Numbered from the stretch's first letter, positions 2,226 to 16,082 are shown. The stretch: 64,000 nucleotides of DNA from a bacterium (GCA_021812365.1 JAKANQ010000001.1:32763-96762), one strand, 5' to 3'. A program made the numbers and translations. Notes: generated from the letters alone by a model not told the origin.

Positions 2226-2648
2226 CTAGTATCTTCGTAATCCAGTTTTATCCAATATTACCCGAACAGTTAAATAGCAAGCGGGATAAAGGATTACGGT
2301 ACCTGTGATGGTAAGCCAATTACTGGCGAAAACATCCGATCCCCAAATTAAACCAATAACAAAAAGGATTCCAAAATAAAGATAGTTGTATAGCACGCTA
2401 CCCAACATTCCCCAACGACCCAATACGGCTCTAACCGCTGCGATAATAAGTATCACCGCGAGTACCACGATAATTGATAACCAATGTGCCGACAGAAACG
2501 ACAACAAGGCATTCCACAACATGCGATATGCCTGCTTCGTTCCCTCATCAATAGCATTAAAAAACGCATCAAGCGTTTTCTTTGTAAACTCGGTTCCTGT
2601 CGCTGTGCTAGTAGAGTTCATTTTTGAGATTAAAACACATGACCCCAA
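2226..2648 (-). CDS. small polytopic membrane protein (3 predicted TM helices), last gene of the TIR operon
   Basis: 140 aa. Soluble N-terminus of about 50 aa, then three hydrophobic helices. Overlaps the upstream TIR-like gene by 19 nt, indicating translational coupling. Confidence 0.5.
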   Translation of the reverse strand: MGSCVLISKMNSTSTATGTEFTKKTLDAFFNAIDEGTKQAYRMLWNALLSFLSAHWLSIIVVLAVILIIAAVRAVLGRWGMLGSVLYNYLYFGILFVIGLIWGSDVFASNWLTITGTVILYPACYLTVRVILDKTGLRRY

Positions 2649-3181
2649 CTTAAATAAGTATCCTTGGAATAATAAGATAAGCCGCTTTTGGGAAGTTTAT
2701 TGAAATCAAATTGTGAAACTGCATCTGCTATTGGCTCTTTTTTGAAAGGTACATGAATAACCATAGCGGTTTTATTATTAATACGTTCAGTGAGAGCCTT
2801 TGGCCAAAGAGAAGATAAGGCGACAGGATCCATAATTCTTTCATAACCCGTGTATGCCGCAATGATTGGCATTTTACAGTTATCTACAGCGTGAGCTATT
2901 TCAAATGGAATCCAGTCTGTGTCTAGACGAGTCGTCGGACCGATAATCAATAGAAGATGTTTTGAATTATTCATCCTTTCTCTGAGCGCACGCCTCAAAG
3001 TTTCTTTGGTGCTTGAATCTCTAACATCACGTTTTTCGTGACTGTTTATAAATTTAAAATCTCCATCTTCATCTCTCACTTTCCACATTCGGAGCGTATT
3101 GTAATACTTCATGTCCGAATCTGTTGGATCTGAAGTATTGTTAGCATGAAATGCTACATATGTGCCGTTTCTATAGTTCAT
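2630..3181 (-). CDS. TIR-like domain protein (DUF1863/ThsB-type)
   Basis: 183 aa. N-terminal TYVAFHANNTSD matches the TIR betaA-type F-x-S-[FY]-x-x-D pattern. A central hydrophobic strand HLLLIIGPTT is followed by DWIPFEIAHAV, a W-x-x-FE motif with a candidate catalytic Glu. Overall layout resembles Thoeris ThsB as I recall it. Confidence 0.55.
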   Translation of the reverse strand: MNYRNGTYVAFHANNTSDPTDSDMKYYNTLRMWKVRDEDGDFKFINSHEKRDVRDSSTKETLRRALRERMNNSKHLLLIIGPTTRLDTDWIPFEIAHAVDNCKMPIIAAYTGYERIMDPVALSSLWPKALTERINNKTAMVIHVPFKKEPIADAVSQFDFNKLPKSGLSYYSKDTYLSWGHVF

Positions 3182-3183
3182 AG

Positions 3184-3786
3184 TTATTTCTCCTTTTGTT
3201 TTTTGTGGATCATTATCAGATATAAAATAATTGAGATCGAGAGAAGAATAAAAATAATTACATTAAGAAACGAACTGAGCGACAATCCGCTAATACAAGC
3301 GGCTTTAATTTCCCCGTATATTTTCGTAGCACTTATAGCAAGCAAGAGTAATGGGAAAATTATCGTATAAAGTGTCCACATCCAATCAGAAAAGATTGGG
3401 TATCGATCAAGATATGATTTTCCCTCTCGCGTAATGATGTCCTCGCCAGACTCCTTGTTTAGAGACTCCTCGATTTTATGGACGTAGGAATATTGTCTTT
3501 CAACAAAAACGGCTACTTGAAAATAGCGGATTGTGAAGATAAGCAAAAGAAACCATGCAATATTCCCTATAATAGCTAGATCTAATTTAAGATTTAAGCC
3601 AAATTTAAAATTTAAAAAATCATTAACTACAACATCGGATGTAATTGGAGAAATTATTTGAAAGGCCAAAAAACCAAGAGCGAGGACGACAAAAATCATT
3701 AAGCGATCACGCCTTTTCACACTCTCATTAATAATTGCACAAGTGTCTTTATAGTGATCGTAAATTATTGATATTTTTTCAGACAT
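3184..3786 (-). CDS. polytopic membrane protein (4 predicted TM helices), no recognisable soluble domain
   Basis: 200 aa. TM helices near LMIFVVLALGFLAFQII, LAIIGNIAWFLLLIFTI, TLYTIIFPLLLLAISA and FLNVIIFILLSISIILYLIMI. Sits between two TIR-like genes, with 2 nt and 8 nt junctions. Confidence 0.5.
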   Translation of the reverse strand: MSEKISIIYDHYKDTCAIINESVKRRDRLMIFVVLALGFLAFQIISPITSDVVVNDFLNFKFGLNLKLDLAIIGNIAWFLLLIFTIRYFQVAVFVERQYSYVHKIEESLNKESGEDIITREGKSYLDRYPIFSDWMWTLYTIIFPLLLLAISATKIYGEIKAACISGLSLSSFLNVIIFILLSISIILYLIMIHKKQKEK

Positions 3787-4234
3787 ACCTACGAATAAAC
3801 TGGTTGGGATAAGGGGCTTCGTCGAGAGCCTTTAGTATGTTTGCTTCTGTAAACGAATATACCCAAGCGGCCCTTGATCCTAAAAGTTCTTCAGGAGATT
3901 CAAACGTTCTATCTAATTTAACTGCTGCGATTCGCTTACCAAGATCAATACTTTGCCGCACTTCGAAGTTTATCCAATTTTTATATCCAATGAGGCCACG
4001 ATTTCTGTGTGGGGAGTTTGCATGTTCACCAACAATCACGAGTGTATGAGTAGCATCTTTTATCTTGGATGTAAGCGCCGCCTTTATTCTTCCGACATTT
4101 GAGCTATTAATTTCTTCTGGAGTAGCATCGTCAAATACAAATTTGAACTTTGGATTTTCATTCCAAGCTTCGAGTAGGTATTTATAATGCTTGTCGTTGT
4201 CGTAATCAAAACTGACAAATACTGAAGGTTTCAT
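3779..4234 (-). CDS. TIR-like domain protein (DUF1863/MTH538-type), second copy
   Basis: 151 aa. SVFVSFDYDNDKHYKYLLEAW is a classic TIR-like N-terminus. THTLVIVGEHANS is followed by NWINFEVRQSI, the same W-x-x-FE motif seen in the 183-aa paralog. Confidence 0.55.
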   Translation of the reverse strand: MKPSVFVSFDYDNDKHYKYLLEAWNENPKFKFVFDDATPEEINSSNVGRIKAALTSKIKDATHTLVIVGEHANSPHRNRGLIGYKNWINFEVRQSIDLGKRIAAVKLDRTFESPEELLGSRAAWVYSFTEANILKALDEAPYPNQFIRRYV

Positions 4235-4245
4235 TTTGTGTTTGT

Positions 4246-4485
4246 TTAATTTTTCCTATCTTTCGGCGGATTCGGATCCTTGCCGTAGCTATCTTTATCA
4301 CTGATTTTGCCATCCTTGTTGTGAATGACATGCTCAACTCCTGCTTTTTTAGCTTCGCGAATAGATTTTTCTTCGGCAGTTTCTTTAGTGTGAGAAGAAG
4401 AAACAGGTTTTTGCTGACCCTCTTTCTTGGTTTCCCACATACCACGGTCGGAGTTATAAACCGTATGAATGTTCTTTTTTGACAT
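4246..4485 (-). CDS. DUF2188-family small protein
   Basis: 79 aa. HTVYNSDRGMWETKKEG ... ELVIHNKDGKISDKDSYGKDPNPPKD matches the DUF2188 signature (hVvP..GWavk..G ... IHg.DG.I.d..SYG.DP.PP.D). Confidence 0.55.
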   Translation of the reverse strand: MSKKNIHTVYNSDRGMWETKKEGQQKPVSSSHTKETAEEKSIREAKKAGVEHVIHNKDGKISDKDSYGKDPNPPKDRKN

Positions 4486-4487
4486 GG

Positions 4488-5147
4488 TTAACTTGATTTT
4501 GGTTTTTTAATTACGTCTACGACCTTTCCGCTGATCTGAAAATCATCTCCTCTGTGAACGAATATAGGCATGAATGTTTCGGTGGATTCAGACTCAAGCA
4601 CAATCTGATCGTGTTCTTTATCTTCCTTGTAGCGTTTAATGGTGCCCATGCCGTCGATAACCGCCACCACGATATCTCCATTTTTAGGATTCTTGTAGGT
4701 GCTATCAACCACGACAAAATCACCATCCTCAATGGTTGGACCATCGGGACGTACCTTCGCCAAATTCATAGACAGACCATCTGCAACGAGAACAAAGAGG
4801 TCCTGCTTCTTACGGGGTAGCATTTTAGCGGAAACCTTGAGGTATCCCTCTGTTCGACTTTCCGCGAATATGGTTGCTGGCCCGCAATTTGCAGCTCCCA
4901 CGATAGGAAGGGAGTAGAACAGGCTCTTAGCGGCTGATTTAAGGTTAAAGCCCCTGCTTACGGGCTTTATAACGCCCTTATCGAGGTTAACCTGCAATAA
5001 CCCAGCTTTTCCCAGCTGGATCAGGTGGTGTTTCACGATCTGGGGCTTGTTTTCCACCCCGATGAGTTTAGCGATTTGGCGATAGCTCAAAGACTCCAAA
5101 TTTTGATGTTTTGAGAGGTTTAATATTGCGGCCTGGATTTTATGCAT
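4488..5147 (-). CDS. LexA/cI-like S24-family transcriptional repressor (HTH plus autopeptidase)
   Basis: 219 aa. N-terminal HTH (LSYRQIAKLIGV). C-terminal S24 fold with the Ser in VADGLSMN and the Lys in GTIKRYK. An internal GPA cleavage-site candidate is present. First gene of the minus-strand operon; divergent from a plus-strand promoter. Confidence 0.65.
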   Translation of the reverse strand: MHKIQAAILNLSKHQNLESLSYRQIAKLIGVENKPQIVKHHLIQLGKAGLLQVNLDKGVIKPVSRGFNLKSAAKSLFYSLPIVGAANCGPATIFAESRTEGYLKVSAKMLPRKKQDLFVLVADGLSMNLAKVRPDGPTIEDGDFVVVDSTYKNPKNGDIVVAVIDGMGTIKRYKEDKEHDQIVLESESTETFMPIFVHRGDDFQISGKVVDVIKKPKSS

Positions 5148-5153
5148 GCCTTA

Positions 5154-5182
5154 ATATTAGCATACTTTTTGGCTGTTTGCAA
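5154..5182 (-). promoter_or_regulatory. candidate sigma70-type promoter (TTGCAA, 17 nt spacer, TAATAT) about 6 nt upstream of the repressor ATG; implies a leaderless mRNA
   Basis: On the minus strand: TTGCAAacagccaaaaagtatgcTAATATtaaggcATG. Confidence 0.35.
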
Positions 5183-5209
5183 GCTCGTCCGTAAATAAGT
5201 TTTACACGG

Positions 5210-5237
5210 TTGACACTATCTCGGGTGGTTATATAAT
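5210..5237 (+). promoter_or_regulatory. sigma70-like promoter (TTGACA, 16 nt spacer, TATAAT) for the small zinc-ribbon gene, divergent from the repressor
   Basis: TTGACActatctcgggtggttaTATAATggaactATG. A nearby inverted repeat GTAAAtaagtTTTAC (5191-5205) may be an operator. Confidence 0.5.
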
Positions 5238-5243
5238 GGAACT

Positions 5244-5528
5244 ATGTCCATGCAAAAGGTCGGTGAAAATCGGTTTCTGTATCGTTGCCCTAAATGTGAT
5301 ATGCCTATGCTGGAAAAGGTGGGGTCTAAACTTCTCCTTTTGCAACACTACAAGGGGCAGCGTGTTAAAACCGAGATAGAACGGGATTTGATAGCTCCCA
5401 CCAACAAGCTCACTATTCGGTGCGGCTCATGTAAAGAAGGAGCACAAACGTTTCTTCACTTCACAGAAATAATCAGAATGGGAGAATCCACTTCGGCGAA
5501 AGTAGTTGAGGTAGGTAGCGTGGTATAA
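5244..5528 (+). CDS. small zinc-ribbon protein (CxxC ... CxxC), cro/regulator-like position
   Basis: 94 aa. Cys pairs at YRCPKCDMP and IRCGSCKEG. Lies immediately downstream of a near-consensus promoter. Confidence 0.45.
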   Translation: MSMQKVGENRFLYRCPKCDMPMLEKVGSKLLLLQHYKGQRVKTEIERDLIAPTNKLTIRCGSCKEGAQTFLHFTEIIRMGESTSAKVVEVGSVV

Positions 5529-5561
5529 TAGGAGCGTAGGTTAACAATTTAACAGAGCATC

Positions 5562-5625
5562 GTCTGGAACGCCCAGACATTCATCTATACCAAATGGTAT
5601 GGGTGCGTGTCTGGGCGTTTTTTGT
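5562..5625 (+). terminator. rho-independent terminator with an alternative upstream hairpin (attenuator-like)
   Basis: acgcccagaca (5569-5579) can pair either with upstream gtctgg (5562-5567) or with downstream tgtctgggcgt (5608-5618), which is followed by TTTTTT. Lies in the leader of the ParB-MTase gene. Confidence 0.5.
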
Positions 5626-5683
5626 TTATCGAGTAAAGGTCGACGGTAAACATTCAAACGCCTCAACAAAAATAAACAAAAAC

Positions 5684-6976
5684 ATGAAACATCTAACTTG
5701 GCACAATGAAATAAGGAAAGTTAAGGACCTCATTCCCTGTGGTTCCAACCCACGCGTTATATCAGATAAAGAGCTTCGGGATCTTAAAAAAAGTATTAAG
5801 CGTTCAGGATATGCGGAGATTATCGCAATTGATGTTGATGGGGAAATTGTTGCAGGTAATCAGAGGCATCGCGCTCTTATGGAAATGGGTATGGGTGACA
5901 CAGAGGTAGATGTCCGGGCTCCGAGCCGTAAGCTCACAAAAGAAGAGTTCGATCGCTACCTTATAGCAAGCAACGCGCTTGGTGGCACTTGGGATTTTGA
6001 GAAGCTTAAATCGTTCAATCTCGATGAATTGATCGACATTGGATTCGATAAAAAAGAACTGGAGAATATTTGGACCGAAAATCTTGAGGTTGAAGATGAT
6101 GATTTTAACGAAACCGCTGAACTTAAAAAGATAAAGATTGCCAAAACCAAGCGCGGTGATTTAATCGCGCTTGGTCCTCATAAGCTTCTTTGCGGGGATT
6201 CTACCAAGCCTGAAACGCTCAAGCGGTTATTCGGGAAAGAACGCGCTTCTGTAATTTATAGCGACCCCGTTTATAATCTCCGTGGTGGTGTTGATTACAA
6301 CAAGGGCATCGGCGGCCGCGCAAATTATGGTGGCCATGTAAACGACACCCGCACCGACGATGAATACCGGGATTTTATTCGGAAAAGTCTTGAGTGCGCC
6401 CTTTCCGTGACTAAAGAAGATGCCCATGTCTTCTATTGGAACGACGAATCGAATATTTGGTTAATCCAAACCCTTTACCGTGAGCTAGGAATAGCGAACA
6501 AGCGCGTTTGTTTGTGGCTCAAGAACGGACAGAACCCGACTCCTGGCGTTGCATTCAATAAGTGCTATGAGCCATGCATTTACGGGGTTCGCGGAAAGCC
6601 ATATATCTCAAAGAACTTGCAGAACCTGAACGAGGTGATGAATAAGGAAATCACGACTGGCAACAGTCTCCTTGAAGAAACGCTTGATCACTTGGATGTG
6701 TGGATGGTAAGGCGTCTTTCTGGCAAAAGTTATGAACACGCCACGAGTAAACCAACCAAGCTTCACGAAAAAGCAATTCGGAGATGTACCTGTCCGGGTG
6801 AAATTATCTTGGATAGCTTTCTAGGCTCTGGCAGCACGTTAATCGCGGCCGAACAATTGAAGCGTCGCGTCTATGCCATCGAACTTGAGCCTATCTTCTG
6901 TGATCTTGCAATTAAACGGTATGAACGGCTCAGCGGGAAAAAGGCAAAAGTAATCCACCACTATGAAGAAGAATAA
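5684..6976 (+). CDS. ParB-like nuclease domain fused to a beta-class N4/N6 DNA methyltransferase (phage-type)
   Basis: N-terminal ParB/Srx-like domain (EIIAIDVDGEIVAGNQRHRA). MTase motif IV variant SDPVY and motif I LDSFLGSGST in IV-then-I order. The track ORF starts at 5594, but that extension crosses the terminator, so the Met at 5684 is the likely start. Confidence 0.6.
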   Translation: MKHLTWHNEIRKVKDLIPCGSNPRVISDKELRDLKKSIKRSGYAEIIAIDVDGEIVAGNQRHRALMEMGMGDTEVDVRAPSRKLTKEEFDRYLIASNALGGTWDFEKLKSFNLDELIDIGFDKKELENIWTENLEVEDDDFNETAELKKIKIAKTKRGDLIALGPHKLLCGDSTKPETLKRLFGKERASVIYSDPVYNLRGGVDYNKGIGGRANYGGHVNDTRTDDEYRDFIRKSLECALSVTKEDAHVFYWNDESNIWLIQTLYRELGIANKRVCLWLKNGQNPTPGVAFNKCYEPCIYGVRGKPYISKNLQNLNEVMNKEITTGNSLLEETLDHLDVWMVRRLSGKSYEHATSKPTKLHEKAIRRCTCPGEIILDSFLGSGSTLIAAEQLKRRVYAIELEPIFCDLAIKRYERLSGKKAKVIHHYEEE

Positions 6977-7364
6977 AAAGCAAAGTGAATTTTTGGAGCA
7001 ACTCAAGAAGATTCCTATTGTTTCCGTAGCTGCGGAGAAAACCGGCCTCTCGCGCAACAGTATCTATCGTTGGAAGCGGGATGATAAGGAATTTGAGAAG
7101 ACCATGGAAGATGCTCTCGCAGAGGGCGAAGCCCTTATTAACGATATGAGTGAGAGCCAACTACTCTCGTTCATCAAGGATAAGAGTTGGCAAGCGGTGT
7201 CATTTTGGTTGCGTCACAGAAACCCGAAGTTCCGCGAGCGCGTGGAAGTAACGGCGAAAATTGAAAATATTGAGTCGCTCACGCCAGAACAAGAAGATAT
7301 TGTTCGGAAAGCATTAGAGCTTGAATCGCAGGAAAAAGAATTACCAAAAGAGATACAAGTATGA
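6963..7364 (+). CDS. phage terminase small subunit-like HTH protein
   Basis: 133 aa. HTH (TGLSRNSIYRWKRDD). Overlaps the upstream ParB-MTase gene by 14 nt. Its stop overlaps the start of the large-subunit gene (ATGA). Confidence 0.5.
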   Translation: MKKNKKQSEFLEQLKKIPIVSVAAEKTGLSRNSIYRWKRDDKEFEKTMEDALAEGEALINDMSESQLLSFIKDKSWQAVSFWLRHRNPKFRERVEVTAKIENIESLTPEQEDIVRKALELESQEKELPKEIQV

Positions 7365-8800
7365 ACCAAGACAAAATCCCACAAGATGTTGTGGATGCCA
7401 TGGTGAAGGATAGGAAGATACGGATCACAATAATCAAAAAAAGCTTTTGGTACTTTTTCCACTTCTACCTTCCTCACTACATAAGATACAAAACCGCGCC
7501 GTTCCACCGCGAAATGTTTTCGATTGCGGAGAATGAATCTGTGAAAACGGTAGTTATCGAGGCGTTCAGGAATTCCGCAAAAACAACCATCATGACGCTC
7601 GCATATCCAATTTGGGCTATCATTGGCTGTCAGCAAAAGAAGTTCATCGTCATTCTCGCGCAGACTCAGCAACAGGCACGCCAAATCCTCTCAAACATAA
7701 AACGTGAGATGGAATCTAATATGTTATTGCGCGCAGACTTGGGGCCATTCGAAGAGCCAGACGATGAATGGCGTGCGGTATCTTTGGTGATTCCACGATA
7801 CGGAGCGCGTATTACGGTCGCCTCCATAGACCAATCCGTGCGTGGATTGCGGCACGGCCCCTATCGGCCCGATCTCATTATTTGCGACGACTTAGAAGAC
7901 TTGGATTCCGTGAGGAGCCGCGATATGCGCGACAAGCTCTACGAATGGCTTGTGGGCGATATTATCCCCTTAGGAGATGTGAATACCAGGTTGATTGTCG
8001 TAGGTACGCGGCTCCACGAAGATTCACTCATTATGCGTCTTCGTAAGCTGATTAGTGAGAAAAGAGTAAATGGAATTGCGCGTACCTATCCGCTCATAGA
8101 CGGGCAAGGAAATATTGCGTGGCCTGGGAAATATCCCAATGAGGAAACGATTGAAAAAGAAAAGCAACGTGTGGGCGATGAACGCGCATGGCGCAGAGAG
8201 TATTGTTTGGAAATCGTGGGCGACACCGATCAGGTAATAGACCAAACATGGATTCATTACTACGACAATCTTCCGATTAAGAAGGGTGCATACATCACGC
8301 TTACCGCAATCGACCTCGCTATTTCCGAGTCAAATCGCGCTGACTATACCGCCATGGTTACTGCAAATATATACATCATAGATGGCCAGATTTACGTCTA
8401 TATTCTTGAGCCAATCGTGAACGAACGGCTCACATATCCGGATATACTGGAGCGCGCACAAATCGTCTATTCCGCTTTCCACAAAAGCGGAGGGGTCATT
8501 ATCGTTGAGGATGTAGGTTTCCAAAAGTCTCTCGTGCAAGATCTTGAAGCTATGGGATACAACGCAGTCTCGTTTAAACCGGGCGGTGCAGATAAGCGTA
8601 TGCGTCTATCCCTTACGGCGGGAATGGTAAAATCTGGCCATGTGTTATTTCCGCGAAAGGGTGCGGAACTTCTCATTGATCAGATTGTTCATTTAGGGCA
8701 AGAGAAGCACGACGATTTGGCGGACGCCTTTTCCATGTTGGTAATAAAATCGGAAACATACCGACCATATACAGCGAGTGATTTTGTCGTTCTCGTTTAA
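7361..8800 (+). CDS. phage terminase large subunit
   Basis: 479 aa. Walker A-like FRNSAKTT and Walker B LIICDDLED. C-terminal RNaseH-like nuclease region with acidic residues (TAIDLA, HDDLADAF). Confidence 0.65.
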   Translation: MNQDKIPQDVVDAMVKDRKIRITIIKKSFWYFFHFYLPHYIRYKTAPFHREMFSIAENESVKTVVIEAFRNSAKTTIMTLAYPIWAIIGCQQKKFIVILAQTQQQARQILSNIKREMESNMLLRADLGPFEEPDDEWRAVSLVIPRYGARITVASIDQSVRGLRHGPYRPDLIICDDLEDLDSVRSRDMRDKLYEWLVGDIIPLGDVNTRLIVVGTRLHEDSLIMRLRKLISEKRVNGIARTYPLIDGQGNIAWPGKYPNEETIEKEKQRVGDERAWRREYCLEIVGDTDQVIDQTWIHYYDNLPIKKGAYITLTAIDLAISESNRADYTAMVTANIYIIDGQIYVYILEPIVNERLTYPDILERAQIVYSAFHKSGGVIIVEDVGFQKSLVQDLEAMGYNAVSFKPGGADKRMRLSLTAGMVKSGHVLFPRKGAELLIDQIVHLGQEKHDDLADAFSMLVIKSETYRPYTASDFVVLV

Positions 8801-8814
8801 CTGCTGGCATTAAA

Positions 8815-8850
8815 ACAAAACCACCGATATGTTCGGTGGCTTTGTTTTGG
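8815..8850. terminator. bidirectional hairpin terminator between the terminase gene and the convergent membrane-protein gene
   Basis: acaaaaccaccga / tcggtggctttgt arms with a 5 nt loop, flanked by A-run and T-run. Confidence 0.6.
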
Positions 8851-8855
8851 TGTTT

Positions 8856-9494
8856 TTACCGATAGTCTTCAACAATCATCGTATAAGTGCCGATTGTATT
8901 GGCATCAATGTAGTATTCTCCAGCACCGTACTCAATCGTTTCATCCTTCACCGGACCCATTACATTCATAATCGCTCCGGCTAGTATTTTACCTTTGTAC
9001 AAAAATGCCTGACAAAAATCTCCGGTACAGTCATAACGAATCCGAAAACGCGAACCCGTTATAGTAAAGGGTTCAGATTTCTTCGCGCCGTTTCCGGAAA
9101 AGGTAAAGATTTGTTGGTACGATTTTCCGGGTTGAACCGCAACTGGTTGCGTACGTTCGGGGCTTGTCGGTTGCTGATTATTAACGGTCTTACTCGCCTC
9201 GGGTGACGGCGTATTGTTCTGAGAAATCTCCGCGCCACCGTTCTTCGCTATGAAGACCCCGGCCAAAATAACCAGAATTATAATCGCCAAGATTCTAACC
9301 CCACTCGACAACTCATGCTTAATCCTACCCTCAATGATTTTGTTTATCGGCGGAATCGAAATTGTCGAGGCAACAATAAAGAGAAACCCAGCAAGTGTGT
9401 TGCTTGCTATATTAGCGATTCCCGTAATGAGCAGTATCACGCCAACCAACCATCCAAGAATCAAACCAACGGTTATTTTTTTGTTTTCGTTCAT
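8856..9494 (-). CDS. membrane protein (2 TM helices, Pro/Gln-rich linker, C-terminal beta-rich domain), unknown function
   Basis: 212 aa. Two N-terminal helices, then a low-complexity linker NNTPSPEASKTVNNQQPTSPERTQP, then a Cys-containing C-terminal domain. Confidence 0.45.
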   Translation of the reverse strand: MNENKKITVGLILGWLVGVILLITGIANIASNTLAGFLFIVASTISIPPINKIIEGRIKHELSSGVRILAIIILVILAGVFIAKNGGAEISQNNTPSPEASKTVNNQQPTSPERTQPVAVQPGKSYQQIFTFSGNGAKKSEPFTITGSRFRIRYDCTGDFCQAFLYKGKILAGAIMNVMGPVKDETIEYGAGEYYIDANTIGTYTMIVEDYR

Positions 9495-9528
9495 ATGTTT
9501 TTAGTTGAGTCTTGTTCGACCTTGAAGT

Positions 9529-9700
9529 GCTGGCTAGAAACACAAAGCTGCTAGCCAGCGGTCCCTTGCGGAACCCATACTCCTTTCGGAATATGACCAT
9601 CCCTGGTGTTCTGACTAGCAGCTCTCTACCAGGGATGGATTTAGAACCGTGCCGCCGGATTACTCCGATGGGTTAGGTTCCGCCTTACAGCTAGTAAGGC
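9529..9700. other. cluster of three strong inverted repeats (hairpins) without U-tracts; candidate structured RNA or recombination/packaging site
   Basis: 9529-9537/9551-9559 (9 bp stem); 9597-9607/9628-9638 (11 bp perfect stem); 9682-9688/9694-9700 (7 bp stem). Between the first two, the minus strand shows small GNRA-looped hairpins (TTCC-GCAA-GGGA and TCC-GAAA-GGA). Confidence 0.45.
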
Positions 9701-9844
9701 TATTCAGTTGTAAATTGATTTTAACGCATTTCGACCTTTGATTCTATACCCCTATCACAAACCATTGTTTTTGCTAAGCCGGACCATCGACACGTTGTCG
9801 ACAACTTAGCTTTACTTCCCCGACCAGTCTGTCATCCATTAAAT

Positions 9845-11164
9845 ATGGATAAAGAACAAAGGACAGGACTTATCGGCAATCCAGCTGTAGTTCCTATAAT
9901 AAAGGTCAGATATTGCTTATATGCTAGAAAGTCGACCGAACAGGACGAGAAACAAGCCCTTTCGATAGACTCACAGATAAAAGAAATGCTAGCCATCGCT
10001 GAACGCGATGAATTGGAAATAGTCGATATTCGCAGAGAAGCTCATTCAGCTAAAGATTCGGGGCAGAGACTAGTGTTCAAGGAATTATTAGAGGATATAC
10101 GACGAGGGAGATATAACGGAATTCTTACCTGGGCACCCGATCGGTTAAGCAGAAACGCAGGAGATTTAGGAAGTGTGGTTGATCTAATGGATCAAAAATC
10201 GCTTATCGAAATTCGGACTTATGGTCAACAATTCAGAAATTCTCCAAATGAAAAGTTCTTACTAATGATTTTATGCAGTCAGGCAAAACTGGAGAACGAC
10301 AATAAAAGTATCAATGTAAAACGTGGATTAAAGACAAGAGTTGAAATGGGTTTATGGCCAGCCCCAGCTCCAACGGGATATTTAAAAGAAAAGCGGATGG
10401 ATAGAAAATGTGAAACTCTTATTGACCCAGCCAGAGCGCCAGTCATCAAACAGGTGTTTGAAAAAGTTGCTTATGAAAAATGGAGTGGTCGGAAAGTTTA
10501 TAACTGGCTCAAATTCGATCTTAACTTTAAGACGGCTACTGGGAACAAGAATCTCACATTAGGGAATGTGTATATGATTCTTCAAAATCATTTCTATTAT
10601 GGAACTTTTGAATATCCTAAAAATAGCGGCAATTGGTATAAAGGAAAACATGAGCCGATCATAACTAAGGAACTGTTTGATGCGGTTCAAAACCAGGTCA
10701 AAAGCCAATTCATACGATCCGAGAGTAAGGAATTTGCTTTTACTAAATTAATGACCTGCGGCCTATGTGGATCAGGCATAACGGCCGATGAGAAGTTCAA
10801 AAAGCAGAAAAATGGGAATGTTCACCGTCACGTTTACTACGGGTGTACGAAAGTACGAGATAGAGATTGTAAATGTGGGTATATCAACGAGGTTGACCTC
10901 CTAAAACAATTTGAGAAACTTATTGAAAAAATAGATATCGACGAAATCGGAATCAAGGAGAAAATCAAAACTGAGGTTGAGCGGTTTAAGAAATTTCAGC
11001 AAGTAGTTCTCGGATCTAAGAAAAAGATTGTAGTTGCCGATATAGACATAAGAAATTATGCGAAGTACATCCTTAGGGAAAGCAAGGATATAGAGAAAAG
11101 AGAACTTCTAGGATGCCTTAGAAGTAAGATTATTTTAAATAATAAGCAAATCACCATTTCTTAA
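9845..11164 (+). CDS. large serine recombinase (resolvase/invertase catalytic domain, recombinase domain, zinc ribbon)
   Basis: 439 aa. Catalytic YARKSTEQ with the Ser nucleophile, then a recombinase domain, then a C-terminal Cys cluster CGLCGS ... CKCGY. Confidence 0.7.
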   Translation: MDKEQRTGLIGNPAVVPIIKVRYCLYARKSTEQDEKQALSIDSQIKEMLAIAERDELEIVDIRREAHSAKDSGQRLVFKELLEDIRRGRYNGILTWAPDRLSRNAGDLGSVVDLMDQKSLIEIRTYGQQFRNSPNEKFLLMILCSQAKLENDNKSINVKRGLKTRVEMGLWPAPAPTGYLKEKRMDRKCETLIDPARAPVIKQVFEKVAYEKWSGRKVYNWLKFDLNFKTATGNKNLTLGNVYMILQNHFYYGTFEYPKNSGNWYKGKHEPIITKELFDAVQNQVKSQFIRSESKEFAFTKLMTCGLCGSGITADEKFKKQKNGNVHRHVYYGCTKVRDRDCKCGYINEVDLLKQFEKLIEKIDIDEIGIKEKIKTEVERFKKFQQVVLGSKKKIVVADIDIRNYAKYILRESKDIEKRELLGCLRSKIILNNKQITIS

Positions 11165-11243
11165 TGAACTACTCTCTTGCGGTATCAAAAAAATCATTGA
11201 ATTTAAGGGGTCTACTGAGCTTTCCCGGGGACGAATTGAATAG

Positions 11244-11249
11244 TATAAT
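11244..11249 (+). promoter_or_regulatory. TATAAT -10 element 8 nt upstream of the MTase ATG (leaderless-type start)
   Basis: agTATAATcaaacaaaATG. No convincing -35. Confidence 0.3.
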
Positions 11250-11257
11250 CAAACAAA

Positions 11258-14200
11258 ATGTCGGACACATTACTTAAAGTAGTTCCAAAACAGCGGAAAT
11301 ACTATCAGGATAAAGCTAATAGCCTGAGGCTACTTGCGGCAAAAGAATTGAGAGATGCCTTTTTGGCCTCCTATGATGAGGATATCTCTCGAAAAACTGT
11401 TTCCGAGTCTTGTTTGGCTGAGTATATTGATACCTTTCCCGATCAAGACTCAGTAAAAACTTTTGCCTTTAATCTTTTAATAAACAATAAAGCTATAGAC
11501 GACTTACTGAAGGGATATGATCCGATAGAAATATCATATGTTGGCTCTTATATAGGAGAGGCAACCTACAGATCCTTTATCAGTCCAACTGATATTTCTC
11601 GAGTAATGGATTTCTTGGCACCATCAAAGGCTATTGGGTATTTTTTCACACCACCGGAGGTAGCATTCTTAATGGCCGATAAAATAATATCTTCTACTGA
11701 CAAAAGTATTGATATCCTAGATCCGAGTGCTGGATACGGTTCGCTATTAGTCGCGTCCTTAATAGTAGCAAAGAATAAAGGGGCAAAATTTAGTTCTGTA
11801 ACCGCAATTGAAGTTGATTCATTTACCTCAAAGAATTTAAAAAAGATTCTTGAAAGAGTTGTCGAGCTATTAGAATTTGATACAAAGCTAAATATTATCA
11901 ATGAAAATGCCATAGGATATTTAGCCAATAGTTTAAACGGTTTATTCGGTCGCCCTGCAAGATTTCAAAAAATCATAATGAATCCACCCTATGGGAGGGT
12001 GAAGTTTTTGAAAAACTTTTTAACAAACAAAGAAACTAGAACCTCTAGCGCTTTATTATCTCACGAAGAACAAGGGATAAAAATAAAAACAAAAGTAGAA
12101 AAGCTAACAAGAGAATTAGATATCATTTCACAAAAGCTCGGTTTCGATTCCAACGTAAGAGAGTACTCGAAATTATTTGTTGCATTAAGCCTCTCAAACT
12201 TAGCTCCCGACGGCCGGATGAGCGTGATTACCCCAAGTACTTGGCTTGGTGATGTTGAGTCGTATGACTTAAGGAAATTAATCATTAACAACTCATACCT
12301 AGAGCAAATTTTACTTTTCCCTGAAGACAGCGGCTTATTCGAAACCGTGAATCAACACACGGCAGTCAGTATCTTGTCTAAACAAGAAAAGGAAATGTTC
12401 GAGATTGTATCCGATTACAATTTGAATGTAAAATTTAGCAGGTCAAACAAGGTTTACTACGCCGATATTAAAAAAAATAATCCACAGGGATTAAAAATCC
12501 CGAAGCATGGCTCGGAGCATGATGAAATCATTTCCAAAATTCAACAACATAAACCGATCCGGCTAATTGAAAACTTAAAGAACCTTAGGGGAGAAATAGA
12601 TCTCTCCTTAAACAAGGATCTAGTATCCAACAAAGACACTGGCCGTCGATTAATCAGAGGCGATCACGTGGAAAGGTACATACTGCATCCGACGACAAAA
12701 TCTAAACGAGATGGATTCATTGAAGAAAGTAGGCTTGGCGAGAAGTTTCGATCACTTCCTAAATTTAAAGATAGTTTAAATTTCAGAATTGTTGGACGCC
12801 AAGTTTCTTACTTAGATAAAAAGAGGCGCTTAGATTTTTGCCTTATTGATCCTGATAGTTTTGTGAGTAATTCTTGCAACTACCTTTACTTTAAGTCTGA
12901 CGACGGCCAAAAAAAACCGAGCAGAAAGTTACTATCTTTATTGGGGATATTAAATAGCTCTGTTCTTGAATGGTATTTCAGGCTTTACAATAGCAACAAC
13001 CATGTCGCTAACTACGAGATAGCAAATTTTCCAGTCTGCTTAGATAGTGAATTTATTCCGCTAATAGCGAAATCTACGGAATTTCTTATCGGGGCATATA
13101 AAGAAGAATCACGGGATGAATCTGTTTCTGGCATAGAAGATTTCCACGATGCCTTGGTTGGCGTGGCGTATGATCTTACGCCAATAATGATCGGTACTAT
13201 TATGGAGTCAATTGACCCCAAAAGAAAAGGTAGGGTTGTAAATTTTGCGGAACACATATGTGAAGGTAATCTACCTCTCGATTTTATGAAGAGCGATCAT
13301 TGGTTTAATCATTATGTCTCAACGCTGTCTGATTTAGACCAAGAGATAATTAAACATGTTCCCCAAGGAGGAAATTGGCAAGATATTCCCGAGGAAGTTC
13401 CTTCTCAAAGGCTACGGCAGATACGTGAAATGTCGAAAGAGCGCGGTGTTGTGCGAACTACCTATTATGGAAGACTAAGACCGGATCAACCATCATATAC
13501 CATTGCTACGTACTATAATCGTCCCGGTAATGGAACAAACATTCATCCATGGGAAGACAGGACGATTTCTTCGCGTGAAGCGGCAAGACTCCAATCTTTT
13601 CCCGATAGTTATATTTTCTTTGGATCTGAAGGCGGTATTAGAACTCAGATAGGAAATGCCGTCCCTCCGCTACTTGCTTATTCATTGGGAAAGCATATCG
13701 GAAGCCGCTATGGCTTTGGCACCTGCGTTGACGCCTTTGCCGGTGCCGGTGGTCTAAGTTGTGGATTAGAGCTTGCTGGCTGGAAAGTGATTGCGGCTAA
13801 CGACAATGATAAACACGCCTCAATAACTTACCGGGCGAATAGGCCCACGGAAAAGACGCCGACTAGTGATGACAAAAAGACTTTCTTTGTAGAGGGAGAT
13901 ATTAACAATAAGAAAATTTGGGAAGAACTTTTATCAGGAATCAAAAAGAAGCTCGGCAATAAAGAATTAGATCTGCTAGTAGGTGGCCCACCGTGCCAAG
14001 GGTTTTCCCACGCTGGATTCAGAAGAGAGGATGATATACGCAACGACCTAGCCTCTATATATTTGAAGCTAGCAATTAAGCTAAGTCCTAAGACCTTTAT
14101 TCTTGAAAATGTAGAGGGACTTCTCACATACAATTCCGGACAGGTAGTAAAGGATATCATTGAGGCTTTGACGGATATCGGCTATCACGTTGAAGCTCCA

Positions 14201-14521
14201 TGGGTACTTAACGCAGAGCAATTTGGCGTACCTCAAATGCGAAGACGAGTATTGATTGTTGCGAATAGAAAAGAAATTGTGCCAAATATGCCAAACTTAT
14301 TTCGCAAATGTGCTGGTCGACGTTCTGGAAAGGTTATTGAGCAACTACACTTAGCACCTCCCGTGACTGCGGGAGAGGCTCTTATAGATCTACCACCGCT
14401 AAAGAAAAGAAGATTTCTAAAGGGAATTAATGATATTAACAAATTGTATTCCCAATGGTTAAAAGGGCTAATTAGCGCTGAGAGATTCCTAGAATCGCGA
14501 TCTAAGATAAGGGAATCGTAG
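11258..14521 (+). CDS. fused DNA methyltransferase: N-terminal gamma-class N6-adenine MTase (Eco57I/TaqI-like) plus C-terminal circularly permuted C5-cytosine MTase
   Basis: 1087 aa. N-terminal motif I ILDPSAGYGSLL and motif IV IIMNPPYG. C-terminal region carries motif IX/X (REAARLQSFPD, GNAVPP) before motif I (FAGAGGLSCG), motif IV (GGPPCQGFS), motif VI (ENVEGLL) and motif VIII (QFGVPQMRRRVLIV). Confidence 0.7.
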   Translation: MSDTLLKVVPKQRKYYQDKANSLRLLAAKELRDAFLASYDEDISRKTVSESCLAEYIDTFPDQDSVKTFAFNLLINNKAIDDLLKGYDPIEISYVGSYIGEATYRSFISPTDISRVMDFLAPSKAIGYFFTPPEVAFLMADKIISSTDKSIDILDPSAGYGSLLVASLIVAKNKGAKFSSVTAIEVDSFTSKNLKKILERVVELLEFDTKLNIINENAIGYLANSLNGLFGRPARFQKIIMNPPYGRVKFLKNFLTNKETRTSSALLSHEEQGIKIKTKVEKLTRELDIISQKLGFDSNVREYSKLFVALSLSNLAPDGRMSVITPSTWLGDVESYDLRKLIINNSYLEQILLFPEDSGLFETVNQHTAVSILSKQEKEMFEIVSDYNLNVKFSRSNKVYYADIKKNNPQGLKIPKHGSEHDEIISKIQQHKPIRLIENLKNLRGEIDLSLNKDLVSNKDTGRRLIRGDHVERYILHPTTKSKRDGFIEESRLGEKFRSLPKFKDSLNFRIVGRQVSYLDKKRRLDFCLIDPDSFVSNSCNYLYFKSDDGQKKPSRKLLSLLGILNSSVLEWYFRLYNSNNHVANYEIANFPVCLDSEFIPLIAKSTEFLIGAYKEESRDESVSGIEDFHDALVGVAYDLTPIMIGTIMESIDPKRKGRVVNFAEHICEGNLPLDFMKSDHWFNHYVSTLSDLDQEIIKHVPQGGNWQDIPEEVPSQRLRQIREMSKERGVVRTTYYGRLRPDQPSYTIATYYNRPGNGTNIHPWEDRTISSREAARLQSFPDSYIFFGSEGGIRTQIGNAVPPLLAYSLGKHIGSRYGFGTCVDAFAGAGGLSCGLELAGWKVIAANDNDKHASITYRANRPTEKTPTSDDKKTFFVEGDINNKKIWEELLSGIKKKLGNKELDLLVGGPPCQGFSHAGFRREDDIRNDLASIYLKLAIKLSPKTFILENVEGLLTYNSGQVVKDIIEALTDIGYHVEAPWVLNAEQFGVPQMRRRVLIVANRKEIVPNMPNLFRKCAGRRSGKVIEQLHLAPPVTAGEALIDLPPLKKRRFLKGINDINKLYSQWLKGLISAERFLESRSKIRES

Positions 14522-16082
14522 TAGAATCGCTGAGGATAGAAAAAACTTGGCGTAACTTTTTGCTTAGAGCAGAGTACTTCTTAGAATCAATTTTCTTTGA
14601 TCGCAAGCCTGAGATATTGCTTTCTCTTTTTGTGCTAGAAACATTTGTTTTCATAGCCCTGTCCCAATTCTTCATATCTGGTGACAGAGGTATTTTCTTT
14701 GCTTCGGCAACAACCGCATCAATTTCGCCACTAAAGTTATCTACGTAGATCTTACGCACCTTCCTATCAACAATGGACTTATCTTGATAAAGCATAAGTT
14801 CTTCGAACGCTATGCGAATTATTCTGTTCGAAAGACTATTGCGAAGCTTAGTATTGATTGGCGTTTTACTAAAGCTTGCAAAGGTTAGGTCACTAGAATT
14901 AAGTTTGTCGAACTTAACTCTGAACAGCGCATATTCTGGATGGAGTATCGTCGTTAGATATTCTGAATAACCGTTCTCGAAAAGAGAGTAAAGCGTTCTA
15001 AGATAGAAGTCTTGCATCGCCCTCATGTAGTCACTCAACTCTTTGGCATCCCTATCGTTTTTGACCAAAAACTTGTACTTATCCCACAATGGTTGCACTT
15101 GCCAACTAGCCACAGATTCATTTGTGCGTTTTTCATAGTCAATTAATATCTTTATATCGCTTAAAAACATTCTGCGATTCTTACTACTATTACAAGGTCC
15201 GCAAGTTGGGAGAAATAAAGGAAGCTGTTTAAATCCACAAGCTAAAGGACCAACATGATCTGGACTTATTTTCTTAAGCTTTTTGCCGCATATGTAACAC
15301 CTTCCGGCGCCAGCGGAATTATATAGCGCGTCAGCGATCAGCCAATCGCCGTCAGACCATAATTCAAAAACCCTTCTATCGTGAAGATAAGATTTAAGGT
15401 TTTCGGGCGATCTTCCGGGGTCTTTTGTAGCTCTGCATAAGTGGCAATAGTCATGGAAACCATCTAAGCGATCTGGTGGATTGCACATGAAACCGGGACT
15501 CAGATAGACTGAACGAATATAATTACTTTTCTCAAAAGCTTCTTTGGAAAAACCAAATTTATTAAAGAAATCAGCTCTTTCGGGAAAAATCTTTTCTAGG
15601 CGCTCTTCAATCTGCTTTTTATTTTCGATTCCGCCAAGAATTTTGATCGCCTCGTCAATAGGCATCTTTTTTGAGAATAGAGAAGTTTTTGTTTCTCTGT
15701 TTAGATATTCTGTAAATACGTGATTGAGATAGAAATAGCCGACGTTTTGCGATTTCCCGCATAGACGACAAGGTCTATAGCCTGTGGGGCTAATCAACCT
15801 CGCCGTTATACTAAAACGATCATCAGAATTTCCTTTTCCCGGAACTTTAAGACTGTTCGCCTTTTTAACCCACCACTCAAAGCGCTCTACGTAATATTTG
15901 TAAAAAGAGGTTGATTTGCCAGAGCTGACTTGCCAATTTATTTTCCCATTTTCAGATATGGCGTTAGGCATTCCTTTGAAGTTGGGGTGTTTAACAATAA
16001 GGCCCATGTAATCAATGTAATTTTGATGGGCCTGATATTTCCCTCTGCCGTAAACTGGTTTTGCCATTTCCTTCACTTCCAT
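14502..16082 (-). CDS. putative HNH-type restriction endonuclease (Type IIS-like partner of the fused MTase)
   Basis: 526 aa. HNH/His-Me finger CYICGKKL ... SPDHVGPL ... CGPCNSSKNRR. Convergent with the MTase and overlapping it by 20 nt. AT-rich. Confidence 0.5.
   Translation of the reverse strand: MEVKEMAKPVYGRGKYQAHQNYIDYMGLIVKHPNFKGMPNAISENGKINWQVSSGKSTSFYKYYVERFEWWVKKANSLKVPGKGNSDDRFSITARLISPTGYRPCRLCGKSQNVGYFYLNHVFTEYLNRETKTSLFSKKMPIDEAIKILGGIENKKQIEERLEKIFPERADFFNKFGFSKEAFEKSNYIRSVYLSPGFMCNPPDRLDGFHDYCHLCRATKDPGRSPENLKSYLHDRRVFELWSDGDWLIADALYNSAGAGRCYICGKKLKKISPDHVGPLACGFKQLPLFLPTCGPCNSSKNRRMFLSDIKILIDYEKRTNESVASWQVQPLWDKYKFLVKNDRDAKELSDYMRAMQDFYLRTLYSLFENGYSEYLTTILHPEYALFRVKFDKLNSSDLTFASFSKTPINTKLRNSLSNRIIRIAFEELMLYQDKSIVDRKVRKIYVDNFSGEIDAVVAEAKKIPLSPDMKNWDRAMKTNVSSTKRESNISGLRSKKIDSKKYSALSKKLRQVFSILSDSTTIPLS

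What the first reader, a model, noticed from the sequence alone, without database searches (positions are those of the whole stretch)
2226..5243. Repressor-led lysogeny-type operon carrying a tandem TIR/membrane-protein module (Rex-like placement, Thoeris-like chemistry)
A cI/LexA-like S24 repressor sits first in a tightly coupled minus-strand operon. Gene junctions are between 2 nt gaps and 19 nt overlaps. Gene order is repressor, DUF2188, TIR-like (151 aa), 4-TM protein (200 aa), TIR-like (183 aa), 3-TM protein (140 aa). This mirrors lambda cI-rexA-rexB, where the distal small 4-TM RexB is the membrane component, but here the sensor slot is filled by TIR-like (ThsB/DUF1863-type) proteins. 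Both TIR-like proteins carry a W-x-x-F-E-[IV] motif where the TIR catalytic Glu is expected. Both are followed directly by a small polytopic membrane protein. No SIR2/SLOG, Macro, nuclease or STING domain is present. This gene combination is not a described Thoeris type as far as I know.
Basis: partly seen in the sequence, partly recalled or inferred. Interest (0 to 1): 0.85.

Follow-up and report, generated by a model that had tools for sequence, protein, structure and literature searches.

The report
Thoeris-like TIR plus membrane-effector defence cassette
Behind the repressor of a small phage-like element sits a two-part anti-virus alarm, in which TIR sensor enzymes flank a small four-helix membrane protein; this pairing was listed by computer in a 2025 preprint but has never been tested.

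Summary

The functional unit is not two TIR/membrane pairs. It is one portable cassette, TIR1 + 4TM, often with a second TIR after it.
- The 4TM protein belongs to an unannotated family of about 200 aa (882 clusters). A TIR gene lies beside it on the same strand in 80 of 92 loci, across many phyla.
- The partner TIR changes between four TIR families.
- Nine loci show a TIR-4TM-TIR sandwich.
- The catalytic Glu is invariant in TIR1 (E91) and aligns in TIR2 (E94).

The last gene is more likely 131 aa than 140. It is not TIR-specific. It closes repressor-led operons that carry many different defence cargos.

TIR2's nearer relatives are type II Thoeris ThsB proteins, which normally sit beside ThsA_Macro.

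The TIR+"4TM" pairing is already listed as a putative, untested Thoeris class (Yirmiya et al., bioRxiv Dec 2025, Table S1). It is therefore not undescribed, but it is unverified.

Most likely mechanism, inferred: phage-triggered TIRs make an NAD-derived signal. The signal binds the conserved cytosolic face of the 4TM protein, which then breaches the membrane.

Interest is moderate.

The parts
4488..5147 (-). LexA/CI-type S24 self-cleaving repressor (219 aa), first gene of the operon
   Evidence: Pfam Peptidase_S24 9.5e-22. PHROG transcriptional repressor 1.8e-19. Aligns to E. coli LexA with the Ser (GLSM) and Lys (TIKRY) of the catalytic dyad kept, and Cys-Gly at the cleavage position, as in UmuD. 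It lies beside ParB-methylase and terminase genes in related loci.
4246..4485 (-). DUF2188 protein (79 aa); travels with the repressor rather than with the TIR-4TM pair
   Evidence: Pfam DUF2188 8.7e-14. PADLOC candidate PDC-S16 3.9e-23. Present in 12 of 92 4TM loci. Follows S24 without TIR1 or 4TM in L148. Linked in the literature to DNA-damage regulators and listed as a putative TIR-associated effector.
3779..4234 (-). TIR1, a ThsB-type TIR protein (151 aa); predicted infection sensor and signal synthase
   Evidence: ThsB_TIR 6.7e-11. PADLOC ThsB 2.3e-14. All 49 of 49 family members found next to 4TM genes hit PF08937. N86, W87 and E91 are invariant. It is 41-63% identical to the Table S1 TIRs labelled '4TM'.
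3184..3786 (-). 4TM protein (200 aa); predicted signal-activated membrane effector
   Evidence: No family hit in four libraries. 149 homologues. 882 clusters, all stand-alone proteins of about 200 aa. AF2 pLDDT 88.3, all-helical. Four hydrophobic segments with an N-in topology; the cytosolic segments are the most conserved. A TIR gene is adjacent in 80 of 92 loci. Overlaps TIR1 by 8 nt.
2630..3181 (-). TIR2, a second ThsB-type TIR protein (183 aa) from the type II Thoeris ThsB clade
   Evidence: ThsB_TIR 7.1e-16. PADLOC ThsB 1.3e-62. PDB hits 3hyn 2.8e-16 and 9uv0 (ThsB) 1.8e-13, with E94 aligned to the Glu of 'EEI'. Relatives at 61-66% identity sit directly after ThsA_Macro. It follows the 4TM gene in L001, L015, L018 and L101 as well.
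2226..2621 (-). 3TM protein (131 aa from the ATG at 2621); terminal gene of the repressor-led operon, an element backbone or generic partner gene, not TIR-specific
   Evidence: 82 homologues of about 131 aa. Public call is 131 aa. The upstream partner is hypervariable in 75 loci. It follows S24 directly in L166. AF2 pLDDT 79.6, with no fold match. Unrelated to the 4TM family.
5148..5243 (.). Divergent control region between the repressor gene and the rightward 94-aa gene
   Evidence: A perfect 12/12 sigma-70 consensus on the + strand at 5210-5237 faces gene 5244-5528. A palindrome lies at 5139-5154, over the repressor start. The leftward promoter for the operon was not detected at the scan threshold. 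By eye there is a weak TTGCAA-17-TAATAT ending 6 nt before the ATG; this is inference.
5244..16082 (.). Rest of the mobile element. It holds a 94-aa Zn-ribbon gene, ParB-N6/N4 methylase (5594-6976), small terminase (6963-7364), large terminase (7361-8800), a 212-aa membrane protein, a large serine recombinase (9845-11164) and a type IIS restriction-modification pair (11258-16082). tRNA-Gln lies just beyond at 16386-16457.
   Evidence: The same backbone lies beside S24 in related loci.

Best explanation
The core is a Thoeris-like, two-component abortive-infection cassette carried as cargo in the lysogeny operon of a small phage-like element. The host is probably an uncultivated Patescibacteria (CPR) bacterium.

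Proposed mechanism:
- TIR1 and TIR2 are ThsB-type sensors, placed either side of one effector gene.
- On detecting a phage component they use the conserved Glu (E91, E94) to convert NAD+ into an ADP-ribose-derived signal.
- The signal binds the conserved, positively charged cytosolic face of the 4TM protein. That face is built from the N-terminal DHYKDT...RRDR helix and the TM2-TM3 segment RYFQ..ERQY.Y.H...TREGKSYL..YP.
- The 4TM protein then oligomerises or opens and collapses membrane integrity, so the phage cannot complete replication.

Context:
- The S24 repressor (self-cleaving, SOS-type) drives the operon during lysogeny, which keeps the cassette expressed.
- DUF2188 travels with the repressor.
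- The 3TM gene is the constant last gene of this operon type. The space between the repressor and the 3TM gene is a slot for interchangeable defence cargo.

Shown here: gene content, TIR identity, Glu conservation, TIR-4TM co-occurrence, partner swapping, topology and conservation pattern.

Inferred: signal production, ligand binding, membrane killing and anti-phage function.
For: 1. TIR identity and catalytic Glu.
2. Gene linkage. In 92 loci from CPR, Bacillus, Neobacillus, Lachnospiraceae, Chloroflexota, Bacteroidota, cyanobacteria, Poribacteria and IMG/VR contigs, a TIR gene lies beside the 4TM gene on the same strand in 80. Five more loci are cut by contig ends. Only these two families recur across the loci.
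3. Partner swapping. Where the TIR1 family is absent, the neighbour is TIR_2 or CAP12-PCTIR_TIR. Gene order can also invert.
4. TIR-4TM-TIR sandwiches occur in 9 loci. This matches the several-ThsB-per-effector habit of Thoeris. The same pattern appears as gene N / gene N+2 pairs in Table S1.
5. TIR1 falls in the TIR cluster that also holds the TIRs of verified type VII (SLATT) systems. TIR2 falls in the type II ThsB clade.
6. The 4TM protein has an N-in topology. It carries about 17 Lys/Arg on the inside segments and 3 on the outside loops. The invariant polar residues (H11, Y12, R26, Y88, Q90, E96, E106, R120, E121, Y125, Y129) are concentrated on the cytosolic side. The model is confident.
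7. Verified Thoeris types V, VII and X also use small membrane effectors without classical nucleotide-binding domains.
8. The operon is tightly coupled and sits inside an element that also carries a restriction-modification system.
Against: - No experiment exists for this class. It is absent from the tested set in Table S2.
- The authors themselves warn that in unverified classes the TIR may be an NAD-depleting effector rather than a signaller.
- The 4TM protein has no recognisable ligand-binding domain, and it has no structural relative in the PDB.
- TIR1 and TIR2 belong to clades tied to different signals: canonical cADPR in type VII, His-ADPR in type II. One effector served by both therefore needs either signal convergence or dual specificity.
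- Seven divergent 4TM loci show no TIR within 600 nt.
- No homologue was found in sequenced phages or plasmids.
- The oligomeric state could not be modelled.
Confidence: 0.6

Rival explanations
1. One reading: two independent tandem systems, TIR1+4TM and TIR2+3TM, each a sensor paired with its own membrane effector.
For: Each TIR is followed within 2-8 nt by a membrane protein in the window and in the close relative L101. TIR2's own clade normally has a membrane effector, ThsA_Macro, and that effector is missing here.
Against: - The 3TM gene has a TIR upstream in only 2 of 75 loci. Its upstream partners are otherwise unrelated defence-type genes, or the S24 repressor itself.
- No other 4TM locus carries a 3TM gene.
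- TIR1-4TM-TIR2 occurs without the 3TM gene in L001, L015 and L018.
- In type II systems the effector comes before ThsB. That is the position the 4TM gene holds relative to TIR2.
Confidence: 0.12
2. Roles reversed: the 4TM protein, or another factor, senses infection at the membrane and activates the TIRs, which kill by depleting NAD+. This would not be Thoeris-type signalling.
For: Many bacterial TIRs are NADase effectors. The preprint's authors state this possibility for unverified classes. The 4TM protein lacks any known nucleotide-binding fold.
Against: - TIR1 and TIR2 are minimal ThsB-type proteins that cluster with TIRs shown to be signal producers.
- Several interchangeable TIRs around one constant partner fits 'many sensors, one effector'.
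- The conserved charged surface of the 4TM protein is cytosolic, not external.
Confidence: 0.15
3. Not a defence system: a lysogeny or housekeeping module, for example superinfection exclusion, a holin-like lysis control or a toxin-antitoxin stabiliser of the element, in which the TIR has another role.
For: The placement is directly behind a prophage-type repressor. Small membrane proteins in that position are often exclusion or lysis-control proteins. There are no experimental data.
Against: Most TIR-4TM pairs lie outside any phage-like context; S24 is nearby in only about 15 of 92 loci. They span many phyla and sit among restriction-modification, HEPN and other defence genes. The TIR cluster was selected in the preprint for enrichment next to defence genes.
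Confidence: 0.08

Closest known systems
Putative 'TIR + 4TM' Thoeris class in Yirmiya et al., bioRxiv 10.64898/2025.12.03.692087 (Table S1, Figure 1C)
   Same: The TIR clade is the same: window TIR1 is 41-63% identical to the listed TIR domains. Listed TIRs are 89-96% identical to TIRs that lie beside this 4TM family in L038, L074 and L096-98. TIR-gene-TIR sandwiches also appear in the table.
   Different: That class is only a computational listing. It has no type number, test, signal or effector description. The window adds a second ThsB from the type II clade, the repressor-led operon context and a CPR host. That the two '4TM' families are the same is inferred through the TIRs. It was not checked on the effector sequences themselves.
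Type VII Thoeris (ThsB + SLATT effector ThsH; canonical cADPR)
   Same: The TIRs of Bacillus type VII systems share TIR cluster 2727267812 with the 4TM-associated TIRs. The effector is a small membrane protein with a cytosolic charged pocket.
   Different: None of 63 family members hits a SLATT model. TIR1 is only 32-34% identical to those TIRs. The signal here is unknown.
Type II Thoeris (ThsB + Macro-TM effector; His-ADPR)
   Same: TIR2 is 61-66% identical to ThsBs that sit directly after ThsA_Macro. It also matches the solved B. amyloliquefaciens ThsB, 9uv0. The gene order effector-then-ThsB is kept.
   Different: The effector position is held by the 4TM protein, which has no Macro domain and no similarity to ThsA_Macro.
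Type V Thoeris (ThsB + DUF2270 3-TM effector ThsF; 3'cADPR)
   Same: A minimal all-helical membrane effector with no classical sensor domain. It is proposed to bind the signal in charged pockets and to breach the membrane.
   Different: No DUF2270 hit. Four rather than three TM helices. A different TIR cluster.
Lambda cI-rexA-rexB, and prophage defence genes co-transcribed with the repressor
   Same: Defence-type genes are transcribed behind the lysogeny repressor and end with a small polytopic membrane protein.
   Different: No sequence relation to RexA or RexB. The chemistry is TIR-based. The positional equivalent of RexB is the 3TM backbone gene, and the TIR-4TM cassette is exchangeable cargo.

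Membership tests
Thoeris (TIR-signalling anti-phage systems, general definition) | ThsB-type TIR protein that keeps the catalytic Glu | tested here: met
   PF08937 hits for both TIRs. E91 is invariant in 49 sequences. E94 aligns to the Glu of solved ThsB 9uv0.
Thoeris (TIR-signalling anti-phage systems, general definition) | A conserved effector gene in the same operon as the TIR | tested here: met
   A TIR gene is adjacent on the same strand in 80 of 92 4TM loci. Only these two families recur.
Thoeris (TIR-signalling anti-phage systems, general definition) | The effector carries a recognisable signal-binding domain (SLOG, Macro, etc.) | tested here: not met
   No hit in Pfam, PADLOC, NCBIfam or PHROGs. 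No PDB fold relative. There is only a conserved cytosolic polar surface. Verified types V, VII and X also lack classical sensor domains.
Thoeris (TIR-signalling anti-phage systems, general definition) | The TIR makes an NAD-derived signal on infection, and that signal activates the effector | not testable with these tools
   Needs infection lysates, LC-MS and effector toxicity assays.
Thoeris (TIR-signalling anti-phage systems, general definition) | Protects against phage | not testable with these tools
   No experimental report was found for this class.
Putative 'TIR + 4TM' class (Yirmiya et al. 2025, Table S1) | TIR belongs to the listed TIR cluster 2727267812 | tested here: met
   41-63% identity of TIR1 to 11 listed '4TM' TIR domains, E down to 3e-59.
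Putative 'TIR + 4TM' class (Yirmiya et al. 2025, Table S1) | The neighbouring effector is the same 4-TM family | tested here: inconclusive
   The test is indirect. Listed TIRs are 89-96% identical to TIRs next to this family in L038, L074 and L096-98. The effector sequences of the table are not available here.
Type II Thoeris | ThsA_Macro (Macro + TM) effector | tested here: not met
   No PF20016 or PADLOC ThsA hit in the operon. hhalign of the 4TM profile against ThsA_Macro gives probability 0.2.
Type II Thoeris | ThsB of the type II clade | tested here: met
   For TIR2 only: relatives at 61-66% identity lie beside ThsA_Macro; PDB 9uv0 1.8e-13.
Type VII Thoeris (SLATT) | SLATT-domain effector | tested here: not met
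   No SLATT model matched any of 63 family members at E<=1.
Type V Thoeris (DUF2270) | DUF2270 effector | tested here: not met
   No PF10028 hit.
Lambda Rex-type exclusion | RexA and RexB homologues | tested here: not met
   No PHROG or Pfam hit for either membrane protein; the TIRs match only unannotated PHROGs.
Lambda Rex-type exclusion | Genes co-oriented directly downstream of the lysogeny repressor | tested here: met
   Junctions run from -8 to +11 nt behind the S24 gene. The same layout is seen in L001, L003, L015 and L101. Co-transcription itself was not tested.

The most novel reading that the evidence does not exclude
The TIR-4TM pair is a real new Thoeris type. Its roughly 200-aa effector senses the signal with a previously unseen minimal cytosolic helical module and no known nucleotide-binding fold. 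It can be fed by ThsBs from two clades otherwise tied to different signals, so either one effector reads two molecules or distant TIR clades converge on one signal. In addition, the interval between the S24 repressor and the constant 3TM gene is a defence-cargo hotspot of a family of small CPR phage-like elements. The 3TM protein would then be a shared membrane component used by very different sensors (TIR, E1/E2, KAP NTPase, HEPN, HNH).
Probability: 0.3. Interest if true: 0.65.

Novelty: new variant of a known kind. Interest (0 to 1): 0.45.

Why it matters
If verified, this would add a Thoeris type with one of the smallest known signal-responsive membrane effectors, and it would show how a bare four-helix protein reads an NAD-derived alarm molecule. 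It also shows Thoeris-type immunity carried by mobile elements of CPR/Patescibacteria, whose antiviral biology is almost unstudied. The repressor-to-3TM slot is a concrete place to mine for new defence genes. The homologues in Bacillus cereus and B. pseudomycoides (L029, L030) make the system testable in B. subtilis with existing Thoeris assays. The gain is limited because the pairing was already flagged by the Sorek laboratory's 2025 survey.

Tried and rejected
- Known effector families for the 4TM protein. Pfam, PADLOC, PHROGs and NCBIfam on the window protein, and Pfam on all 63 aligned members, gave only sub-threshold noise.
- Homology of the 4TM protein to type II ThsA_Macro, or to the 3TM family: none by hhalign.
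- Domain fusions that would tie the 4TM protein to a TIR or a sensor domain: none among 882 clusters.
- The 4TM gene in sequenced phages or plasmids: no tblastn hit. The 3TM gene in IMG/VR: none.
- An exact-sequence look-up of the 200-aa form failed, because the public call is the 171-aa form.
TIR identity therefore rests on profile and sequence evidence.
- A third conserved component was looked for. The 335-350-aa downstream proteins turned out to be other TIR families. DUF7701, DUF6602, TPR and metallo-beta-lactamase neighbours are sporadic.
- No consensus promoter for the leftward operon was found at the scan threshold.
- Element boundaries and att sites were not resolved.

Full report
**1. 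Observation**

The six co-oriented minus-strand ORFs exist as described.
- Profile searches identify 4488-5147 as an S24 LexA/CI-type repressor (Peptidase_S24 9.5e-22), 4246-4485 as DUF2188, and 3779-4234 and 2630-3181 as ThsB-type TIR proteins (6.7e-11 and 7.1e-16; PADLOC ThsB models down to 1.3e-62).
- The 200-aa and 140-aa proteins match nothing in Pfam, PADLOC, PHROGs or NCBIfam.
- The repressor aligns with E. coli LexA and keeps the Ser/Lys dyad. It has Cys-Gly at the cleavage position, as in UmuD.
- Junctions read from the sequence are +2, +11, -8 and +2 nt.
- The last junction is either -19 nt (TTG at 2648) or +8 nt (ATG at 2621). The 82 homologues are about 131 aa, and public gene calls use the ATG, so the 131-aa form is the better reading.
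- Public calls truncate the 4TM protein to 171 aa.

**2. Surroundings**

The operon sits at the left end of an island of about 14 kb.
- A 96-bp divergent control region holds a perfect sigma-70 consensus facing a 94-aa Zn-ribbon gene.
- Next come a ParB-N6/N4 methylase, small and large terminase, a large serine recombinase and a type IIS restriction-modification pair. tRNA-Gln lies just beyond.
- No capsid, portal or tail genes were seen, so this is a prophage remnant or a satellite-like element.
- The identical locus occurs on 11 metagenomic contigs.
- Relatives are mostly Patescibacteria/CPR.

**3. The 4TM protein and its partner**

The 4TM protein has 149 close homologues. A profile search finds 882 clusters at 50% identity. 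With one spurious repetitive exception, all are stand-alone proteins of about 200 aa with no fusions.

I collected 92 loci and called their neighbours.
- Only two gene families recur: the 4TM family and a TIR family of about 145 aa.
- A TIR gene lies on the same strand within 600 nt, usually at -46 to +23 nt, in 80 of the 92 loci. Five loci are cut by contig ends. Seven, mostly the most divergent homologues, have none.
- All 49 representative partners hit PF08937. N86, W87 and E91 are invariant.
- Where the TIR1 family is missing, the neighbour is another TIR family: TIR_2 in L032, L057, L058 and L090, and CAP12-PCTIR_TIR in L034.
- Gene order inverts in some Firmicutes.
- Nine loci have a TIR on both sides of the 4TM gene.
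- S24 (about 15 loci), ParB-methylase (15) and DUF2188 (9-12) are confined to the CPR-element subset.

The conserved unit is therefore TIR + 4TM, with an optional second TIR. It is found from CPR to Bacillus cereus, Lachnospiraceae, Chloroflexota, Bacteroidota and cyanobacteria.

**4. The second TIR and the 3TM protein**

- TIR1 and TIR2 are only 25% identical.
- TIR2's relatives at 61-66% identity sit directly after ThsA_Macro. They are type II Thoeris ThsBs.
- TIR2 matches the solved ThsB 9uv0, with E94 on the catalytic Glu.
- In the window the 4TM gene holds the position that ThsA_Macro has in those systems, yet the two are unrelated.
- The trio TIR1-4TM-TIR2 recurs without any 3TM gene in L001, L015 and L018.

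The 3TM family (75 loci) has a TIR upstream only in the window and in its close relative L101.
- Elsewhere it follows, at -3 to +12 nt, an HNH protein, an AAA_15 ATPase, a YgjP peptidase, a HEPN protein, a ThiF/E1, an E2/Cap2-like protein, a KAP NTPase or unknown large proteins.
- In elements with the same TerL-TerS-ParB/methylase backbone it is the last gene of the S24-led operon.
- It follows S24 directly in L166, follows S24-DUF2188-185aa in L148, and follows S24-130aa-ThsB_TIR-E2 in L104.
- The 3TM and 4TM families are unrelated.

The 'tandem TIR/membrane module' is therefore better read as a ThsB-effector-ThsB cassette inserted into a variable cargo slot. The slot is bounded by the repressor and a constant small membrane gene.

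**5. Structure and topology of the effector**

- AF2 gives a confident all-helical model: pLDDT 88.3, pTM 0.81, with helices at 3-45, 47-62, 70-113, 129-166 and 170-194.
- Hydropathy gives four TM segments at 30-48, 68-86, 136-154 and 176-194.
- Lys/Arg counts place the N-terminus, the 87-135 segment and the C-tail inside the cell: about 17 Lys/Arg inside against 3 outside.
- The inside segments are the most conserved parts.
- They carry the invariant H11, Y12, R26, Y88, Q90, E96, E106, R120, E121, Y125 and Y129.
- No solved structure resembles it beyond generic helical bundles.
- The 3TM model (pLDDT 79.6) also has no fold match.

**6. Literature**

Yirmiya et al. (bioRxiv 10.64898/2025.12.03.692087) scanned about 600 million proteins. 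They proposed 29 putative Thoeris types and verified types V-XI.
- Their Table S1 lists about 34 TIR domains with the putative effector '4TM'. All fall in TIR cluster 2727267812, which also holds Bacillus type VII (SLATT) TIRs.
- Those TIRs are 41-63% identical to window TIR1.
- They are 89-96% identical to TIRs that lie beside my 4TM family in L038, L074 and L096-98. Their '4TM' is therefore almost certainly this family.
- The class was not among the ten configurations tested.
- The authors caution that untested classes may use the TIR as an NADase effector.
- The same paper lists DUF2188 as a putative effector.
- An earlier preprint links DUF2188 to operons under DNA-damage-responsive CapH/CapP regulators. 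That parallels its position behind an SOS-type repressor here.
- No paper reporting a test of TIR+4TM was found.

**7. Mechanism**

The best-supported model has confidence about 0.6. The TIRs act as ThsB sensors and synthases. Their NAD-derived product binds the conserved cytosolic face of the 4TM protein, which then disrupts the membrane and causes abortive infection.
- Shown: TIR identity, Glu conservation, tight and phylogenetically broad linkage, TIR-family swapping around a constant partner, several TIRs per effector, and the topology and conservation pattern.
- Inferred: signal production, binding, oligomerisation, killing and phage protection.
- The signal cannot be predicted. The TIR1 cluster includes canonical-cADPR producers and the TIR2 clade includes His-ADPR producers. 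How both could serve one effector is unresolved.
- Rivals: two independent pairs (0.12), TIR as NADase effector (0.15), and a non-defence lysogeny function (0.08).

**8. Verdict**

Relative to experimentally known systems this is a new variant of Thoeris. As a gene pairing it has already been catalogued. Interest is moderate (0.45). The most useful new points are the evidence for a single TIR-4TM(-TIR) cassette, the mixed-clade ThsB sandwich, the conserved cytosolic motif set of the effector, and the repressor-to-3TM cargo slot in CPR elements.

Noticed in passing
window 2226-2621 (-); loci L009, L012, L014, L101-L174: The 131-aa 3TM gene is a promiscuous terminal gene. It is tightly coupled (-3 to +12 nt) behind very different defence-type genes: HNH_5, AAA_15, YgjP peptidase, HEPN_Cthe2314, ThiF/E1, E2/Cap2-like, KAP NTPase and unknown proteins of about 1000-1200 aa. 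In one element family the interval between the S24 repressor and the 3TM gene looks like a variable defence-cargo hotspot; in L166, S24 is followed directly by the 3TM gene.
   Followed up: partly
L104 2405-5381: Another cargo in the same slot: S24, a 130-aa gene, ThsB_TIR (189 aa, 1.8e-26), an E2/Cap2-like protein (PADLOC E2 1.1e-34), then the 3TM gene. This is a TIR paired with ubiquitin-like conjugation machinery in a CPR element.
   Followed up: partly
window 5244-11164: The element carries small and large terminase genes, a ParB-methylase and a large serine recombinase, but no recognisable portal, capsid or tail genes between them. It is either a prophage remnant or a satellite-like element. 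Its boundaries and att sites were not determined.
   Followed up: no
window 11258-16082: A type IIS restriction-modification pair: a 1087-aa fusion of N6-adenine (Eco57I/TaqI_C-like) and C5-cytosine methylases, convergent with an Alw26I-family endonuclease (3e-92). It lies between the recombinase and tRNA-Gln (16386-16457), so the island carries at least two defence modules.
   Followed up: no
window 5210-5237 (+) and 5139-5154: A perfect 12/12 sigma-70 consensus (TTGACA-16-TATAAT) faces the 94-aa Zn-ribbon gene. A palindrome overlaps the repressor start codon. The layout resembles a lysis/lysogeny switch, and the leftward promoter may give a leaderless repressor mRNA.
   Followed up: partly
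window 3700-3786 (-); L181-L184: Public gene calls start the 4TM gene at Met30 (171 aa). This drops the invariant cytosolic N-terminal motif DHYKDT...RRDR. It also hides the 8-nt overlap with TIR1.
   Followed up: yes
window 4488-5147 (-): The S24 repressor has Cys-Gly rather than Ala-Gly at the position aligned to the LexA self-cleavage site. Cys-Gly is the UmuD-type cleavage site.
   Followed up: partly
L047 1789-2142, L053 4657-4962, L032 4178-4933: Sporadic extra neighbours of the TIR-4TM pair: DUF7701 (about 100 aa, 4 loci) directly upstream, and DUF6602 in L032. In L053 DUF7701 precedes a 4TM gene that has no detectable TIR nearby.
   Followed up: no
L034-L036 (Neobacillus, Bacillaceae): Here the 4TM gene is followed by a protein of about 340 aa with a CAP12/Pycsar-type TIR domain, a family usually viewed as an NADase effector. 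The TIR's role may therefore differ between subgroups.
   Followed up: no
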